The notes under the pieces: generated by a model
Told to the model about the DNA's origin: nothing
Database searches by the model: none
The model's input: only the letters and a program-made list of their open reading frames with translations
Part shown: piece by piece, positions 38,201 to 41,941 of the stretch
How the letters are laid out: each line of letters opens with the position of its first letter
Position numbering within the stretch: position 1 is the first letter of the stretch
Assembly: GCF_009914755.1 (NCBI RefSeq)
Contig: NC_060943.1
Length of the DNA stretch: 64,000 nt
Source of the DNA: the human T2T-CHM13v2.0 reference genome, Homo sapiens
Reading direction: 5' to 3' (one strand)
Translations under genes and position numbers: made by a program

Positions 38201-41200
38201 GGGAAACTGAGGCTCCATGCAGCCACAGCCTCACTCAGTGCCGGCTGGTGAGTGCACACCCGACCAAAGGGCTCTCCTCCACCCAGGGGATCGAGATGCT
38301 GGGGTTTGCTGCCTCCAAGACAGGAGGTTCTCAAAGGGGGTAGCCCTGCCCCCCACCCCGCCCCAGGGGACACTGGGTGATGTCTGGAGATACCTGTAGT
38401 CGTCATGACTTGGGGGCTGATGGCATGGAGTGGGCAGAGGCCAGGGACACTGCTCAGCACCCTGCAGTGTCCAGGACAGCCACTTCCCCCTCTCCACCGA
38501 AAACAACCAAGAATGACCCGGCCCTGAACATCAGCAGTGCCAAGGCAGAGAAACCCTGCGCTAAGATAACAGATGAAACAGTTGCCTTTCTCAGCTCTAG
38601 AATCAAGTCTTCATGACAGCCTGGCCTCCCTTGCAGGTTTCTGCCATCCCTTATATTGAAACACTGGCCTGTTTTCCCAGTGCCTCCCAAAGGGCCTGGA
38701 ATGAGATGGCTATCGTTGCAGATTACACTTTTTTTTTTTTGAGACGGAGCCTCACCCAGGCTGGAGTGCAACGGCGCGATCTTGGCTCACTGCAAGCTCC
38801 GCCTCCTGGGTTTACGCCATTCTCCTGCCTCAGCCTCCCCAGCAGCTGGGACTACAGGCACACACCGCCATGCCTGGCTAATCTTTTGTATTTTTAGTAG
38901 AGATGGGGTTTCACCGTGTTAGCCAGGATGGTCTCCATCTCCTGACCTCGTGATCCACCTGCCTCGGCCTCCCAAAGTGCTGGGGTTACAGGTGTGAGCC
39001 ACCGCGCCCGGCTGCAAACACTTCACTGGGCAGCTATTCCGCACCCACCCCCACTGCCCAGCGTCGAGCTCCTGCCTGCCCTTGGGGAGCTCTCAACCCC
39101 GGTGGGGGACATGGACACGTTGACCAGTTACAGGCACAAGGCTCAGGGCCTAGAGGCACGATGGGGGATGTACAGGCACATCAGGGGCAGTGGACATATC
39201 CTGGAGGCGGCTCCTGGGAGGAGGTGACGGTTGCAGTCTTCGTCGACTGAAAGGCGGCCTGGGTACCGTCGTGGGGGCTCAGCGGGTCCCCAGCCCTGGC
39301 ACACCACCGCCTCTCTCCGGCAGGAGCCGTCACTCTGCTAAGCCTGTATCTGCTGTTCGGCTACGGAGCGTCTCTGCTGTGCAATCTCATCGGATTTGTG
39401 TACCCCGCATATGCCTCGTGAGTGCACGGCTGGCTGCCCACGCGGGGGGTTCTGGGGGCTCCCTGGCAGCCCCTGACCCTGCTGCACCCTCCCTGCAGAA
39501 TCAAAGCTATCGAGAGCCCAAGCAAGGACGACGACACTGTGTGGCTCACCTACTGGGTGGTGTACGCCCTGTTTGGGCTGGCCGAGTTCTTCAGCGATCT
39601 ACTCCTGTCCTGGTTCCCTTTCTACTACGTGGGCAAGGTGGGCCCTGCCAGGGCGGGCACAGCCGTGGAGCGCATGGGGCTTGGGGATTCCTGGGAGGCG
39701 CTGGGGCCAGAAAGTCCGGAGGATACCAGGAGATGGGGGATGTGAGGGGAAGACTCAGTCCCTTCCCTGGGGAAACGAGCCCTGTCCGGGGGCTGATGGT
39801 GGAGGGCCCACCCTGAAGGGTGTCTGATGGTGGAGACCCAAGCCTGCTCCAATAGGATGTCCGATGGTGGAGGGCTCACCCTACAGGATGTCTGATGGTG
39901 GAGGGCCCACCCTGAAGGGTGTCTGATGGTGGAGACCCAAGCCTGCTCAAATAGGATGTCTGATGGTGGAGGGCTCACTTAAAGGGTGTCTGATGGTGGA
40001 GACCCAGGCTTATTCCAATAATATGTCTGATGGCACAGGGCCCACCCCTAAAGTGTGTCTGACGGTGGAGACCCAGGCCTGTCCCAGTAGGACGTCTGAT
40101 GGTGGAGGGCTCACTCTAGAGGGTATCTGATGGCGAAAACCCAGGCCCATCCCAATAGGACGTCTGATGGTGGCGGGCCCACCCTAAAGGGTGTCTGATG
40201 GTGGAGACCCAGTGCCTGTCCAGGATGGGCATCTGGTGGAGTGGTGCAGCCCCTCTCCCCACCAGGGGCACAGAGCTGGGTGGGCCCGCGTGTAACTCCT
40301 GCCCCGCCCTGCAGTGCGCCTTCCTGTTGTTCTGCATGGCTCCCAGGCCCTGGAACGGGGCTCTCATGCTGTATCAGCGCGTCGTGCGTCCGCTGTTCCT
40401 AAGGCACCACGGGGCCGTAGACAGAATCATGAACGACCTCAGCGGGCGAGCCCTGGACGCGGCGGCCGGAATAACCAGGAACGGTGGGTGCTCGCAGGCG
40501 CCTGGCTGCCTCAGGCCATCTCCCGGGTCTGGACCTGTCTCTCTCCACCTTGCCTCCCTTTCTGACTTTGGCCGCCCCCTCTCACTGTCCGCCTCTCTCT
40601 CTCACGCTTCCGGGAACCAGTCTTGCAGGTCCTGGCCCGTAGCCGGGCAGGCATCACCCCGGTGGCTGTGGCCGGGCCCTCCACTCCCCTGGAAGCTGAC
40701 CGTACGTAACCGCTGTGGGGAGATAGGAGCTGTGTGTGTGTGTGTGTGCGCGCGCGCGCGCGTGTGTTTGAGCGTATGTTTGCTGTGTGCACATGTATTA
40801 TTGTGTGTGCATGTTTTGTCATGTGCAAGAGGGTGCGTGTGCATGGGCTCAAGTGTATGTTTGGTGTGTGAGTGAGCAAGGGAGTGAGCATGTTTTCTCA
40901 CGTGTGCATATGTGTGTGTGTGCCCACGTGTGCATGTGAGTATATGTGTGTGCGTGTGACCATGTGTGCACGTGTGAGTGCGTGCGTGTGCATGACTGCA
41001 CATGCGTGTGCTCTGTGTGCACCCATCTGTGCATGGGTGACCATGAAAGCCTCTGTGTGGTTGACACCATCTCTGCTGAGGGTGGCTGCCCGGCCCCTCG
41101 ACTTGTCATGCTCATAGCCAGTAGCCTCAGTCCCGCCTGCGAGCAGCTCCGGGGAGCCCAGGCCTGCCTCACGGCCCTCCCCCACCCGCCCCTCTCTCTG

Positions 41201-41241
41201 CAGTCAAGCCAAGCCAGACCCCGCAGCCGAAGGACAAGTGA
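35300..41241 (+). CDS. REEP6: Receptor expression-enhancing protein 6 (DP1/Yop1p-family ER-shaping protein); 211 aa with exon 5, 184 aa without
   Basis: Exons 35300-35414, 39324-39417, 39499-39637, 40315-40483, 40621-40701 (81-nt cassette) and 41204-41241 (TGA) total 636 nt. [14 protein letters not shown]...[31 protein letters not shown] is the TB2/DP1 domain. Confidence 0.97.
36155..39012. mobile_element. Alus in REEP6 intron 1 (36155-36600 -, 37836-38125 +, 38727-39012 -)
   Basis: Alu consensus motifs. Confidence 0.88.
38321..38558 (+). mobile_element. MER20 (hAT-Charlie DNA transposon), near full length
   Basis: caggaggttctca...ccaggggacactgggtgatgtctggaga...gccagggacactgctcagcaccctgcagtgtccaggacagcc...gagaaaccctg; terminal inverted repeats with a degenerate 8-bp TSD (ctccaaga / cgctaaga). 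Confidence 0.8.
39791..40240. repeat. Minisatellite in REEP6 intron 3, ~13 units mostly alternating ~31 and ~37 bp
   Basis: Conserved core GTCTGATGGTGGAG followed by gggcccaccctgaagggt or acccaagcctgctccaataggat. Confidence 0.9.
40621..40701 (+). CDS. REEP6: REEP6 alternative 27-codon cassette exon 5 (the known retina/photoreceptor-enriched REEP6.1 exon)
   Basis: aaccAG|TCTTGCAGG...GCTGACC|gtacgt; 81 nt, frame-preserving, phase 1. Confidence 0.88.
40731..41040. repeat. (TG)n(CG)n microsatellite with degenerate TG-rich extension, REEP6 intron 5
   Basis: tgtgtgtgtgtgtgtgtgcgcgcgcgcgcgcgtgtg followed by ~270 nt of TG/CATG-rich sequence. Confidence 0.9.
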
Positions 41242-41935
41242 AGCAGCCCCCTGAGCCTCACAAGGACCTCCTGGCTGGTGAGGAGGGGGCCGCGCCAGGC
41301 TCCCAGGCCTCCACAGAGTCTTCAGCGCATCCCCCAACAGCAGCCCCTGCCAGTCCCTCGGGTCCAGGCAAGGCCCTGGGGGTCTCCTTAAATGCCACCT
41401 CGGGCAAGTCCCAGTCCCAGTCCTCGGCCACCCCCAGCTCTGGATCCCAGGGCCAGCTGCCCTCTGGCTCTGGCTGTGGCTCCCGCCTGTCCGGCAGGGC
41501 CCAGGGCCAGCGTCGGGCACAGGGCAGCTCCCACTGGTCTCGGCAACACACCCAGCCGCCTGGTACTTCCTCCAGCCCCTCCCAGTCAGCCCTCCCGTCC
41601 TCGGGGCCCCTGCAGCCACCCAACGTCACCTCCAGCCCGGTCTCACCCATGGTCCAGTCTCCCAGCAGCAGCAACATCCCCACGCAGCCCCCCAGCAAGT
41701 CCTCTGGCAAGCCGGAGGACGCAGCCCCCAAGACCAGCGGACAGCGCCAGAAGGAATCGTCGAAACAGCCTGCCAGCAGCGCCTCAGTGCCCGAGCTGGT
41801 CCCCTGCCATTCCGGGACCTCTCTGGAGTACACTTCGGAGTCCACCACCGAGATCACCTGCAGCTGGCCACACCACAGGCCCCCGTGCCTGCAGCACTAC
41901 TGGTGCCTGAAACACCTGGCCTGCTAGGAGGCTCC

Positions 41936-41941
41936 AATAAA
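41936..41941 (+). terminator. REEP6 poly(A) signal AATAAA
   Basis: AATAAA about 700 nt after the REEP6 stop. Confidence 0.85.

What the first reader, a model, noticed from the sequence alone, without database searches (positions are those of the whole stretch)
40481..41941. Hidden long C-terminal ORF filling the REEP6 3'UTR, reachable by +4 tandem splice donors
Seen: the frame offset -1 from the REEP6 stop is open from the last-exon acceptor (41204) to TAG at 41925-41927. That is 241 codons including the stop, ending 8 nt before the AATAAA, so it covers essentially the whole 3'UTR. It reads [25 protein letters not shown]..., then a Ser/Pro/Gln-rich linker, then a complex Cys/His/Trp tail EITCSWPHHRPPCLQHYWCLKHLAC. 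Seen: exon 5 ends C|GTAC|GTAACC, with a second GT at 40706, and exon 4 ends G|GTGG|GTGCTC, with a second GT at 40488. Inference: either +4 donor converts phase 1 to phase 2 and enters this frame, giving 441 aa (exon 5 +4) or 414 aa (exon 4 +4, exon 5 skipped). Its stop is in the last exon, so NMD is not expected. This would be an ER-shaping protein with a long disordered cytosolic tail. Caveats: +4 GT is built into the donor consensus, GC-rich UTRs yield long ORFs by chance, and such an isoform may already be annotated or predicted in some mammals.
Basis: partly seen in the sequence, partly recalled or inferred. Interest (0 to 1): 0.8.

Follow-up and report, generated by a model that had tools for sequence, protein, structure and literature searches.

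The report
Second reading frame of REEP6
The long open frame in the REEP6 3'UTR is real and is the back half of a second, overlapping reading frame of the gene that placental mammals have kept intact, reported for mouse in 2013 but not annotated in human.

Summary
The ORF exists as described: window 41205-41927, 240 codons plus TAG, ending 8 nt before AATAAA.

In human alone it is not significant. Dinucleotide shuffles leave that frame open in 4.5% of trials.

It is, however, only part of something larger. In the exon-5-skipped mRNA the same frame (-1 of REEP6) is open for 442 codons, the whole mRNA. A genomic ATG at 35098 extends it to 480 codons.

- **Conservation:** 42 of 46 predicted mammalian proteins carry this frame and end in the same C-terminal motif. 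They cover all four placental superorders.
- **Frame:** their tails align to the human frame in one piece, with many in-frame indels.
- **Codon signal:** GC3 excess and codon usage single out this frame.
- **Prior report:** Neme & Tautz 2013 listed mouse Reep6 as an overprinted gene with its own start codon.

The exon-4 +4 donor is very weak. The exon-5 +4 donor equals its weak annotated donor.

Translation is untested. The kind is known, and the human annotation lacks it.

The parts
41204..41927 (+). Codons start at 41205, with 240 sense codons plus TAG at 41925-41927. It overlaps the last 38 nt of the REEP6 CDS and then fills the 3'UTR.
   Evidence: Translation. All orthologous tails align to this frame in one gapped HSP over nt 2-721. 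GC3 is 0.78 against GC1 0.60 and GC2 0.65, permutation p=5e-5. Codon-usage LLR is +45.0 against -71.6 and -37.1 for the other frames.
41787..41924 (+). Conserved C-terminal block of 46 aa: VPELVPCHSGTSLEYTSESTTEITCSWPHHRPPCLQHYWCLKHLAC. It has an acidic Ser/Thr stretch followed by a Trp/Cys/His-rich basic helix.
   Evidence: The last 40 aa are 65-70% identical to human across 34 other species, against 27-48% for the rest of the tail. Two Trp and the final H-L are invariant in a 24-sequence alignment. AlphaFold2 on the Cebus orthologue gives its only helix here, at low confidence. There is no paralogue in the human genome.
35098..35414 (+). Candidate start ATG (35098-35100) and the first segment of the alternative frame. 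It covers 113 nt upstream of the RefSeq TSS (35211), then the 5'UTR and exon 1 in the -1 frame.
   Evidence: ORF listing. The only ATGs in 35001-35303 are at 35098 and the REEP6 ATG at 35300. 23 of 46 orthologous models start at the homologous ATG. Its distance to the REEP6 ATG takes six values between 55 and 76 codons, always in frame. There is no codon-usage signal in this short stretch in human. It overlaps CCAAT and GC-box promoter motifs.
39324..39417 (+). Exon 2 read in the alternative (-1) frame.
   Evidence: Open in the spliced mRNA. The same reading appears in orthologous models.
39499..39637 (+). Exon 3 read in the alternative (-1) frame.
40315..40483 (+). Exon 4 read in the alternative (-1) frame. 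It joins the last exon in phase when exon 5 is skipped.
   Evidence: There is no stop in the -1 frame across the whole REEP6 CDS, where synonymous-codon permutation expects 2.6 (P of none = 0.042).
40640..40642 (+). TAG in the alternative frame inside retina-specific exon 5. In human the long ORF therefore needs exon-5 skipping. With exon 5 included it ends after 246 aa.
   Evidence: This agrees with the published variant nomenclature fs*86 (REEP6.1) versus fs*320 (REEP6.2).
40484..40489 (+).
   Evidence: PWM score is 8.2 bits for the annotated donor and 0.2 bits for the +4 donor.
40702..40707 (+).
   Evidence: PWM score is 2.7 bits for the annotated donor and 2.6 bits for the +4 donor. Both lie at the 3rd percentile of 117 real donors.
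41936..41941 (+). Polyadenylation signal AATAAA, 8 nt after the ORF's stop.

Best explanation
The 3'UTR ORF is the distal half of an overprinted second reading frame of REEP6.

The frame lies -1 relative to REEP6. It is open from a genomic ATG at 35098, 202 nt upstream of the REEP6 ATG. It runs through the 5'UTR and exons 1-4, then, with exon 5 skipped, through the whole last exon to TAG at 41925. That is 480 codons.

It encodes a very basic, Ser/Pro/Gly/Arg-rich protein that is predicted to be disordered. The protein has no known domain and no paralogue. It ends in a conserved acidic-Ser/Thr stretch followed by a Trp/Cys/His-rich helix.

Shown here:
- the ORF and its extent in human;
- its presence, in the same frame and with the same end, in predicted proteins of 34 other species from all four placental superorders;
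- in-frame indels and absence of stops despite near-neutral amino-acid divergence;
- coding-like codon-position composition and codon usage in the part that REEP6 does not use.

Inferred:
- that it is translated;
- that translation starts at ATG 35098 on transcripts beginning upstream of the RefSeq TSS, with REEP6 then made by leaky scanning or from downstream-TSS transcripts;
- that the long variable region serves mainly to carry the conserved C-terminal module.

The same overprint was described for mouse from Ensembl annotation in 2013.
For: Extent:
- Spliced NM_138393 is open in this frame from nt 2 to 1327, 442 codons.
- From ATG 35098 it gives 480 aa with no stop, pI 11.2.

Orthologues:
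- Three protein searches gave 46 models from named sources.
- 42 of 46 end in ...HL[AS][CY]. The 4 exceptions are one late frame loss (Smutsia) and three models that never enter the tail.
- tblastn of the first 27 models places the tail in human frame 2 over nt 2-721, or a shorter part of it in 4 models. Non-primates score 82-182 bits, against 28-47 bits for secondary alignments, mostly in another frame. The 12 added models behave the same, at 110-181 bits.

Frame preservation:
- An alignment of 35 species has tails of 215-334 aa and 100 distinct internal gap blocks, all in frame.
- In a substitution-only simulation, divergence matching the observed identities would add 1.5 to 6.4 stops. P(no stop) is 0.21 at macaque-like, 0.046 at marmoset-like and 0.001-0.002 at non-primate divergence.

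Intrinsic signal in the REEP6-free 3'UTR:
- GC3 excess has permutation p=5e-5.
- Codon-usage LLR is +45.0 against -71.6 and -37.1. For 244 GC-rich non-exonic control segments, the best frame has mean -19.8, sd 9.7, max 5.9.

Start codon:
- 23 of 46 models start MRRG.RGRP at the homologous ATG.
- The spacing to the REEP6 ATG takes six values from 55 to 76 codons, always in frame.

Literature:
- A published 2-nt deletion is named p.Leu94Valfs*320 and 'extends beyond the stop codon'. This independently confirms the open frame.

No RNA-level alternative was found. There is no Rfam family (best 14 bits against a gathering score of 70). The last 198 nt fold no better than shuffles (z -0.73).
Against: - No translation evidence of any kind was available: no Ribo-seq, no peptides, no CAGE. 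Supplementary tables of ORF catalogues were closed.
- In human the ATG at 35098 lies 113 nt upstream of the RefSeq TSS, inside a stretch with three CCAAT boxes, an inverted CCAAT (the 'PIG' of the conserved N-terminus) and a GC box. Conservation of the 'N-terminus' may therefore be promoter conservation.
- The annotated 5'UTR has no ATG in this frame, only two GTG.
- The ATG-to-REEP6-ATG stretch shows no codon signal: LLR -9.8 and flat GC by codon position.
- No human or ape model was returned by any of the three searches. RefSeq does not annotate it.
- Outside the last ~45 aa, the amino-acid sequence diverges about as fast as unconstrained DNA would.
- Human ORF length alone is within chance (P=0.045). 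Openness of the frame across the REEP6 CDS is only mildly unusual (P=0.042 to 0.12).
- All orthologue evidence comes from predicted proteins, which exist only where a frame is open. No orthologous DNA could be examined, so dN/dS was not computed.
- AlphaFold2 confidence is low throughout: mean pLDDT 41.
Confidence: 0.72

Rival explanations
1. The tail is a C-terminal extension of the REEP6 membrane protein. It would be reached by a frame-shifting splice choice: a +4 donor at exon 5 or exon 4, a +5 acceptor at 41209, or the internal AG at 40402-40403. The result would be a TB2/DP1 protein with a long disordered cytosolic tail.
For: - All four splice choices put the REEP6 frame into the tail frame. 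The products are 441, 414, 411 or 438, and 383 aa.
- The exon-5 +4 donor scores 2.6 bits against 2.7 for the annotated donor.
- Six models join canonical REEP6 sequence carrying PF03134 to the tail: Ovis ammon, Bison, Camelus, Galemys, Tupaia and Smutsia. Galemys and Smutsia read as a +4 donor at exon 4. Tupaia reads as a direct in-phase junction.
Against: - The exon-4 +4 donor is at background level, 0.2 bits. The +5 acceptor scores 3.0 bits against 13.4 for the annotated one. The internal AG scores 3.6 bits.
- The six hybrid models use six different ad hoc junctions (intron read-through, late entry, internal gaps). They look driven by ORF length.
- Most models read exon 4 in the alternative frame straight into the tail.
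- This model does not explain why the alternative frame is open through exons 1-4, nor why a homologous upstream ATG is in frame in 23 models.
- RefSeq and a long-read study give two coding isoforms only.
Confidence: 0.12
2. The region is not coding at all. It would be a T-poor, C-rich 3'UTR that lacks stops in every forward frame through composition alone, with a conserved regulatory RNA element next to the poly(A) site. Gene predictors would then turn the open frame into protein models.
For: - Human-only ORF probability is 0.045 for this frame and 0.14 for any forward frame. Between about 41390 and 41900 none of the three forward frames has a stop. The minus strand also carries ORFs of 199-256 aa.
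- Amino-acid divergence outside the C-terminus is near the neutral expectation.
- There is no human model and no experimental evidence of translation.
Against: - Composition does not explain frame-specific GC3 excess or codon usage. The LLR gap between the best and the next frame is 82, against a maximum of 30 in 244 controls.
- It does not explain 100 in-frame gap blocks with the same terminal stop in 42 of 43 models that enter the tail.
- It does not explain the absence of new stops.
- No Rfam hit and no unusual RNA fold were found.
Confidence: 0.12
3. Programmed -1 ribosomal frameshifting moves ribosomes from the REEP6 frame into the tail frame.
For: The tail frame is -1 of REEP6. One X_XXY_YYZ heptamer (CCCTTTC) lies in frame at CDS nt 327.
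Against: It is a single weak heptamer, in the middle of the membrane domain and far from the REEP6 stop. No stimulatory structure was sought or seen. Cellular -1 frameshifting is rare in mammals (recalled). This model explains neither the upstream open frame nor the upstream ATG.
Confidence: 0.02

Closest known systems
Mouse 'Reep6 overprint' (Neme & Tautz 2013, BMC Genomics 14:117; PMC3616865). Table 1 passage and the section 'Alternative reading frames' were read.
   Same: It is the same gene with the same arrangement. A separate start codon in the first exon opens a second reading frame that overlaps the ancestral REEP6 frame. The authors dated it by phylostratigraphy to placental-level age. 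The rodent models found here share the N-terminal [19 protein letters not shown] and the C-terminal motif with the human frame.
   Different: - The paper rests on Ensembl mouse annotation. In the parts I read it gives no analysis of the 3'UTR part, of the C-terminal motif, of human, or of translation.
- It dates the frame to Boreoeutheria (ps17). Here elephant, dugong and tamandua models carry it too, which moves it to the placental ancestor.
- In human the ATG is outside the RefSeq transcript, and exon 5 carries a stop in this frame.
Long overlapping alternative-frame genes of mammals: CDKN2A INK4a/ARF, GNAS XLalphas/ALEX and POLG/POLGARF (recalled, no call); altFUS and altPIDD1 (search listing and start of abstract only).
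   Same: A second protein is read from the same mRNA strand in another frame. It is lineage-restricted, basic and disordered, and lacks homologues elsewhere.
   Different: - Here the second frame spans the entire REEP6 CDS and continues 683 nt beyond it, so about half of it is free of overlap.
- For those cases translation and function were shown. Here neither is shown.
Tandem (delta-4) splice donors, GTNNGT (recalled as a known class of subtle alternative splicing).
   Different: There is no evidence of use. A GT at +5/+6 is part of the donor consensus itself. The exon-4 alternative is at background strength.

Membership tests
Overprinted / dual-coding gene (second ORF in another frame of an annotated CDS) | A long ORF on the same strand, in a different frame, overlapping the annotated CDS. 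| tested here: met
   The -1 frame is open over all 184 REEP6.2 codons and beyond: 442 codons in the mRNA and 480 from ATG 35098.
Overprinted / dual-coding gene (second ORF in another frame of an annotated CDS) | The second frame is preserved across species beyond what the first frame and base composition enforce. | tested here: met
   The non-overlapping tail is kept in frame with the same stop in 42 of 43 models that enter it, from 11 orders. There are 100 in-frame gap blocks. A neutral simulation predicts 1.5-6.4 new stops.
Overprinted / dual-coding gene (second ORF in another frame of an annotated CDS) | A start codon for the second frame lies within a real transcript. | tested here: inconclusive
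   The homologous ATG is conserved and in frame in 23 models, and the paper places it in the mouse first exon. In human it lies 113 nt upstream of the RefSeq TSS. No TSS data were available.
Overprinted / dual-coding gene (second ORF in another frame of an annotated CDS) | The second frame is translated (ribosome footprints, peptides, or a tagged product). | not testable with these tools
   No reads or proteomics were available and supplements were closed. Paper searches found no report.
   Exon 5: 2.6 against 2.7 bits, so comparable. Exon 4: 0.2 against 8.2 bits, so not comparable. The PWM came from only 117 donors.
   RefSeq has two mRNAs, neither with a +4 donor. A long-read organoid study reports two coding isoforms (passages). 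RNA-seq junction counts were not available.
TB2/DP1/HVA22 (PF03134), or any known domain, in the tail | A Pfam match. | tested here: not met
   No Pfam family at E<=1 for the human tail or for three full-length orthologues. No PDB sequence match at E<=1.
Programmed -1 ribosomal frameshift | A slippery heptamer with a downstream stimulatory structure near the point where the frames must switch. | tested here: not met
   The only heptamer is CCCTTTC at CDS nt 327, far upstream. Structure downstream of it was not examined.

The most novel reading that the evidence does not exclude
Human REEP6 is a true two-protein gene.

- Transcripts that start upstream of the RefSeq TSS would make a 480-aa basic, disordered protein specific to placental mammals.
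- Its only strongly constrained part is a C-terminal acidic-Ser/Thr plus Trp/Cys/His helix module, which has no homologue elsewhere in the genome.
- TSS choice and exon-5 inclusion would decide which protein is made.
- Some phenotypes ascribed to REEP6 alleles that remove exons or shift frames would be partly due to loss or alteration of this second protein.

The frame would date to the placental ancestor, older than the published estimate.
Probability: 0.45. Interest if true: 0.75.

Novelty: already known. Interest (0 to 1): 0.5.

Why it matters
REEP6 is a retinitis pigmentosa gene (passages). It is also expressed outside the retina, which I recall but did not check.

If the second frame is translated, several things follow:
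- Synonymous REEP6 variants are missense or nonsense in it.
- Variants in the "3'UTR" change or truncate a protein.
- Exon deletions and frameshift alleles in patients and in mouse models hit two proteins at once.
- Retina-specific inclusion of exon 5 truncates the second protein in human.

The non-overlapping tail gives a clean handle for testing. A stop or a tag placed there, or loss of the upstream ATG, leaves REEP6 protein untouched.

For annotation, this is a roughly 480-codon frame conserved across placentals that human RefSeq lacks. For evolution, it is a large overprinted gene that can be dated to the placental ancestor. Most of its sequence drifts while the frame and a short C-terminal module are held.

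Tried and rejected
- **Chance alone.** Rejected as the full explanation, although the human ORF length by itself is within chance.
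- **Repeat or transposon origin of the 3'UTR.** The region is not masked.
- **Known domain or structure.** Pfam gave none and PDB sequences gave none. AlphaFold2 on the Cebus orthologue with 23 orthologues gave a disordered model (mean pLDDT 41, pTM 0.15). I therefore ran no fold search.
- **Paralogue of the C-terminal motif in the human genome.** Only the locus itself matched; the next best hit had E=0.15.
- **Conserved RNA element.** There was no Rfam match of note, and folding gave z=-0.73.
- **-1 frameshifting.** One distant heptamer only.
- **Codon signal upstream of the REEP6 ATG.** None found.
- **Literature.**
  - 'REEP6' with 'alternative reading frame', 'dual-coding', 'overprinting', and five alt-REEP6 spellings found only Neme & Tautz 2013 as relevant.
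  - 'C19orf32' found nothing.
  - A six-term search was badly designed. Its 20 listed papers do not mention REEP6.
  - 'REEP6' with 'reading frame' gave 52 papers, of which 30 were listed. Four bore on the question and were opened.
  - 'Reep6, sperm, knockout' listed nothing I used.
- **First codon-usage run.** One search used a mis-framed PCSK4 fragment in training. It was repeated with clean CDSs, which is the result I cite. The amino-acid percentages printed were partly mis-scaled; I use only those for S, P, G and R, and the pI.
- **Rows dropped from the 35-species alignment:**
  - P0007 and P0009 (further alpaca isoforms);
  - P0012 (bison, enters the tail late);
  - P0016 (camel, middle missing);
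  - P0027 (Smutsia, frame lost near the end);
  - P0037 and P0038 (further Myotis davidii isoforms);
  - P0040 (second marmot);
  - P0044 (second tamandua isoform);
  - P0042, P0045 and P0046 (do not reach the tail).
- **Labels from my own knowledge.** Assignments of species to orders and superorders are mine, based on the names the sources give. 'bmy' is an unnamed EukProt label, 94% identical to blue whale. Neutral divergence figures for primates and other mammals are recalled.

Full report
**1. The observation**

The last exon of REEP6 (41204-41957) read from 41205 gives 240 sense codons and TAG at 41925-41927. AATAAA follows 8 nt later at 41936. The quoted peptides and both GTNNGT donors are at the stated coordinates: 40484/40488 and 40702/40706. 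The predicted products of 441 and 414 aa are correct. RefSeq lists two mRNAs, NM_138393 without exon 5 and NM_001329556 with it. Neither has a coding part beyond 41241, and the 3'UTR is not repeat-masked.

**2. Chance in human alone**

- The last exon is 41% C and 13.5% T.
- The three forward frames hold only 8 stops in all, against a dinucleotide-shuffle mean of 9.3.
- The given frame stays open over 240 codons in 4.5% of 5000 dinucleotide shuffles. Some forward frame does so in 14%.
- The minus strand has ORFs of 256 and 199 aa.

**3. The ORF is part of a larger one**

In the spliced NM_138393 mRNA the same frame (-1 relative to REEP6) is open from nt 2 to nt 1327. That is 442 codons, the whole mRNA, with no ATG before codon 350.

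With exon 5 included, the frame meets TAG at 40640-40642.

Upstream of the RefSeq TSS (35211), the genome has an ATG at 35098-35100 in this frame. It and the REEP6 ATG (35300) are the only ATGs in 35001-35303. From that ATG the frame runs 480 codons without a stop.

A published 2-nt deletion is named p.Leu94Valfs*320 in REEP6.2 ('extends beyond the stop codon') and fs*86 in REEP6.1. This matches both the open frame and the exon-5 stop (Arno et al. 2016, passages read).

Across the REEP6 CDS itself, the -1 frame has no stop. Permuting synonymous codons gives 2.6 on average. P(none) is 0.042, or 0.12 with codons drawn from neighbouring genes. That is suggestive, not decisive.

**4. Orthologues**

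Three searches of named public proteins returned 46 models:
- the human tail as query;
- the blue-whale tail within a 418-aa model, to lift the length limit;
- the whole 476-aa Cebus model.

Thousands of candidates of unnamed source were left out by the tool before scoring. No human or ape model appeared.

What the models show:
- **C-terminus.** 42 of 46 end in ...HL[AS][CY]. The exceptions are Smutsia, which enters the tail and loses the frame near the end, and three models that never reach the tail.
- **Taxa.** They come from primates, tree shrew, rodents, cetartiodactyls, carnivores, bats, eulipotyphlans, pangolin, elephant, dugong and tamandua. That is all four placental superorders. The order assignments are my own, from the source names.
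- **N-terminal parts.** Most read REEP6 exons in the alternative frame. 23 begin [19 protein letters not shown] at the ATG homologous to 35098.
- **Hybrids.** Six join canonical REEP6 sequence to the tail, each by a different junction.
- **Automatic names.** NCBI's pipelines call several of them 'REEP6 isoform X1' or 'serine/arginine repetitive matrix protein 1-like'.

**5. Frame preservation**

tblastn of the first 27 models against the human last exon places the tail of each in a single gapped alignment in the human ORF's frame. It covers nt 2-721, or a shorter part of it in 4 models (bison, camel, Panthera, Smutsia). Non-primates show 31-47% identity and 82-182 bits. Secondary alignments, mostly in another frame, show 23-37% identity and 28-47 bits, plus one 25-aa reverse-strand match for Smutsia. 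The 12 models added later behave the same.

An alignment of one tail per species (35 rows; dropped rows are listed under Tried and rejected) has tail lengths of 215-334 aa and 100 distinct internal gap blocks.

The other forward frames are also nearly free of stops. A species with a frameshift would therefore still tend to yield a model, only with another C-terminus, as Smutsia does. So 42 of 43 tail-entering models keeping the end is not merely an effect of ascertainment.

In a substitution-only simulation started from the human ORF, I matched divergence to the observed identities: 86% for macaque, about 70% for New World monkeys, and 40-47% for most non-primates. Such divergence creates 1.5, about 3, and 5.6-6.4 stops on average. 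P(no stop) is 0.21, 0.046 and 0.001-0.002.

The same run shows that most of the tail diverges about as fast as unconstrained sequence would at those distances. The neutral distances themselves are recalled. The exception is the end. The last 40 aa are 65-70% identical to human across species, against 27-48% elsewhere. Two Trp and the final His-Leu are invariant in a 24-sequence alignment.

**6. Intrinsic coding signal**

- In the tail, GC by codon position is 0.60 / 0.65 / 0.78. For REEP6's own CDS it is 0.60 / 0.41 / 0.80.
- The GC3 excess has permutation p=5e-5. It lies in the last two thirds of the tail: GC3 is 0.82 and 0.85 there, against 0.68 in the first third.
- I built a codon-usage log-likelihood from 3074 codons of four other genes of the window. 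Over 41242-41924 it gives +45.0 for this frame against -71.6 and -37.1.
- In 244 overlapping GC-rich non-exonic controls, the best frame has mean -19.8, sd 9.7 and max 5.9.
- The stretch from ATG 35098 to the REEP6 ATG shows no such signal: -9.8 and flat GC.

**7. The start**

In the 23 models that begin at the homologous ATG, its distance to the REEP6 ATG is 55, 67, 71, 73, 74 or 76 codons. Indels in this REEP6-non-coding stretch have therefore kept the ATG in frame. Such models exist only where that is so, which weakens the argument.

Against it: the conserved 'N-terminus' overlaps an inverted CCAAT box and a GC box. Three CCAAT boxes lie 76-136 nt upstream of the ATG. Promoter conservation is thus an alternative reading.

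In human the ATG lies outside the RefSeq transcript. The annotated 5'UTR offers only GTG at 35227 and 35233 in this frame. The ATG has G at -3 and C at +4. The REEP6 ATG has GCCATGG.

**8.

I built a position weight matrix from 117 donors and 121 acceptors of curated RefSeq mRNAs. They come from the window plus 200 kb of chr19, with REEP6's own sites excluded. Scores in bits:

| Site | Annotated | Alternative |
|---|---|---|
| Exon 4 donor | 8.2 | +4 donor: 0.2 (2nd percentile; 45% of all GT in the window score as well) |
| Exon 5 donor | 2.7 | +4 donor: 2.6 |
| Last-exon acceptor | 13.4 | +5 acceptor at 41209: 3.0 |

The +5 acceptor would also enter the tail frame.

An internal AG at 40402-40403 would shift REEP6 into the alternative frame in human. 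It scores 3.6 bits.

A long-read study of human retinal organoids describes two coding isoforms that differ by the cassette exon (passages).

None of this excludes a minor exon-5 +4 isoform. Nothing requires one either.

**9. What the protein would be**

- It is 480 aa with pI 11.2. Ser, Pro, Gly and Arg are each 10-15% of residues.
- The N-terminal half has pI 12.0, with 46 Arg+Lys against 10 Asp+Glu. The tail is 58% Ser/Pro/Gln/Thr/Gly.
- It has no Pfam family and no PDB relative.
- The C-terminal 52 aa have no paralogue in the human genome.
- AlphaFold2 on the Cebus orthologue with 23 orthologues gives mean pLDDT 41 and pTM 0.15. Its single helix covers the last 13 residues.
- No RNA family or unusual fold explains the conserved end.

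**10. What is known**

Neme & Tautz 2013 list mouse Reep6 among 13 overprinted genes found from Ensembl annotation. [quoted passage not shown] They date the newer protein to Boreoeutheria and remark on faster REEP6 divergence after its appearance. The parts I read give no evidence of translation.

My searches found no other paper on it.

The present work adds:
- the human locus;
- the placental-wide distribution, through Afrotheria and Xenarthra models;
- the conserved C-terminal module;
- the intrinsic coding signal in the human 3'UTR;
- the dependence on exon-5 skipping and on an upstream TSS in human.

**11. Verdict**

It is wrong on mechanism: this is a second reading frame with its own start, not a tail on REEP6.

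The thing is already in print for mouse and belongs to a known kind. Its translation, function and human annotation remain open.

Noticed in passing
window 40402-40404 (inside exon 4): Several non-human models skip the first 30 codons of exon 4 through an internal acceptor: FLLRGQ|A.RGRGQ in the alternative frame, or ...YYAGK|HH... in the REEP6 frame. In human the corresponding AG sits one base earlier (CTA AGG CAC). The skip would be 89 nt, not 90, and would move the REEP6 frame into the alternative frame, giving 383 aa. The acceptor's PWM score is 3.6 bits, low but above the annotated exon-5 acceptor (-0.5).
   Followed up: partly
window 34960-35160: There are three CCAAT boxes (about 34964, 34996 and 35022), an inverted CCAAT (35152-35156) and a GC box around the candidate ATG at 35098. 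The layout would suit transcription starts both near 35090-35120 and at the RefSeq TSS 35211. The conserved 'PPIG' of the orthologous N-termini is the inverted CCAAT box read as codons.
   Followed up: partly
window 40725-41050 (intron 5): A long alternating purine-pyrimidine tract, (GT)n then (GC)n followed by degenerate TG/CA-rich sequence, lies between exon 5 and the last exon. It is not listed among the masked repeats. It gives Cys/Val/His-rich pseudo-ORFs on both strands.
   Followed up: no
window 40621-40701 (exon 5): The retina-specific cassette exon has very weak splice sites by PWM: acceptor -0.5 bits, donor 2.7 bits. It carries a stop in the alternative frame in human. Blue whale, Myotis davidii and Marmota marmota models read through the homologous exon in that frame.
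   Followed up: partly
window 41204-41218: The start of the last exon is a short tandem duplication, TCAAGCCAAGCCAG, with AG dinucleotides at +5, +10 and +14. The Tupaia model joins the REEP6 frame directly to the tail (D|AKSS...), as a 5-nt difference here would allow. In that species the tail may hang on REEP6 itself, if the assembly is right.
   Followed up: no
window 41049-41603: RefSeq marks an H3K27ac-H3K4me1 hESC enhancer that covers the end of intron 5 and the first half of the tail ORF.
   Followed up: no
P0008/P0009 (alpaca), P0006 (Sorex), P0032/P0036 (Myotis), P0035/P0040 (marmots): The variable middle of the tail has lineage-specific tandem expansions, all in frame. They are QTQTPGQPRASG units in alpaca, SSSQVNSPQRVN-like units in shrew, units of about 37 aa in Myotis, and PTAGTQH units in marmots.
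   Followed up: no
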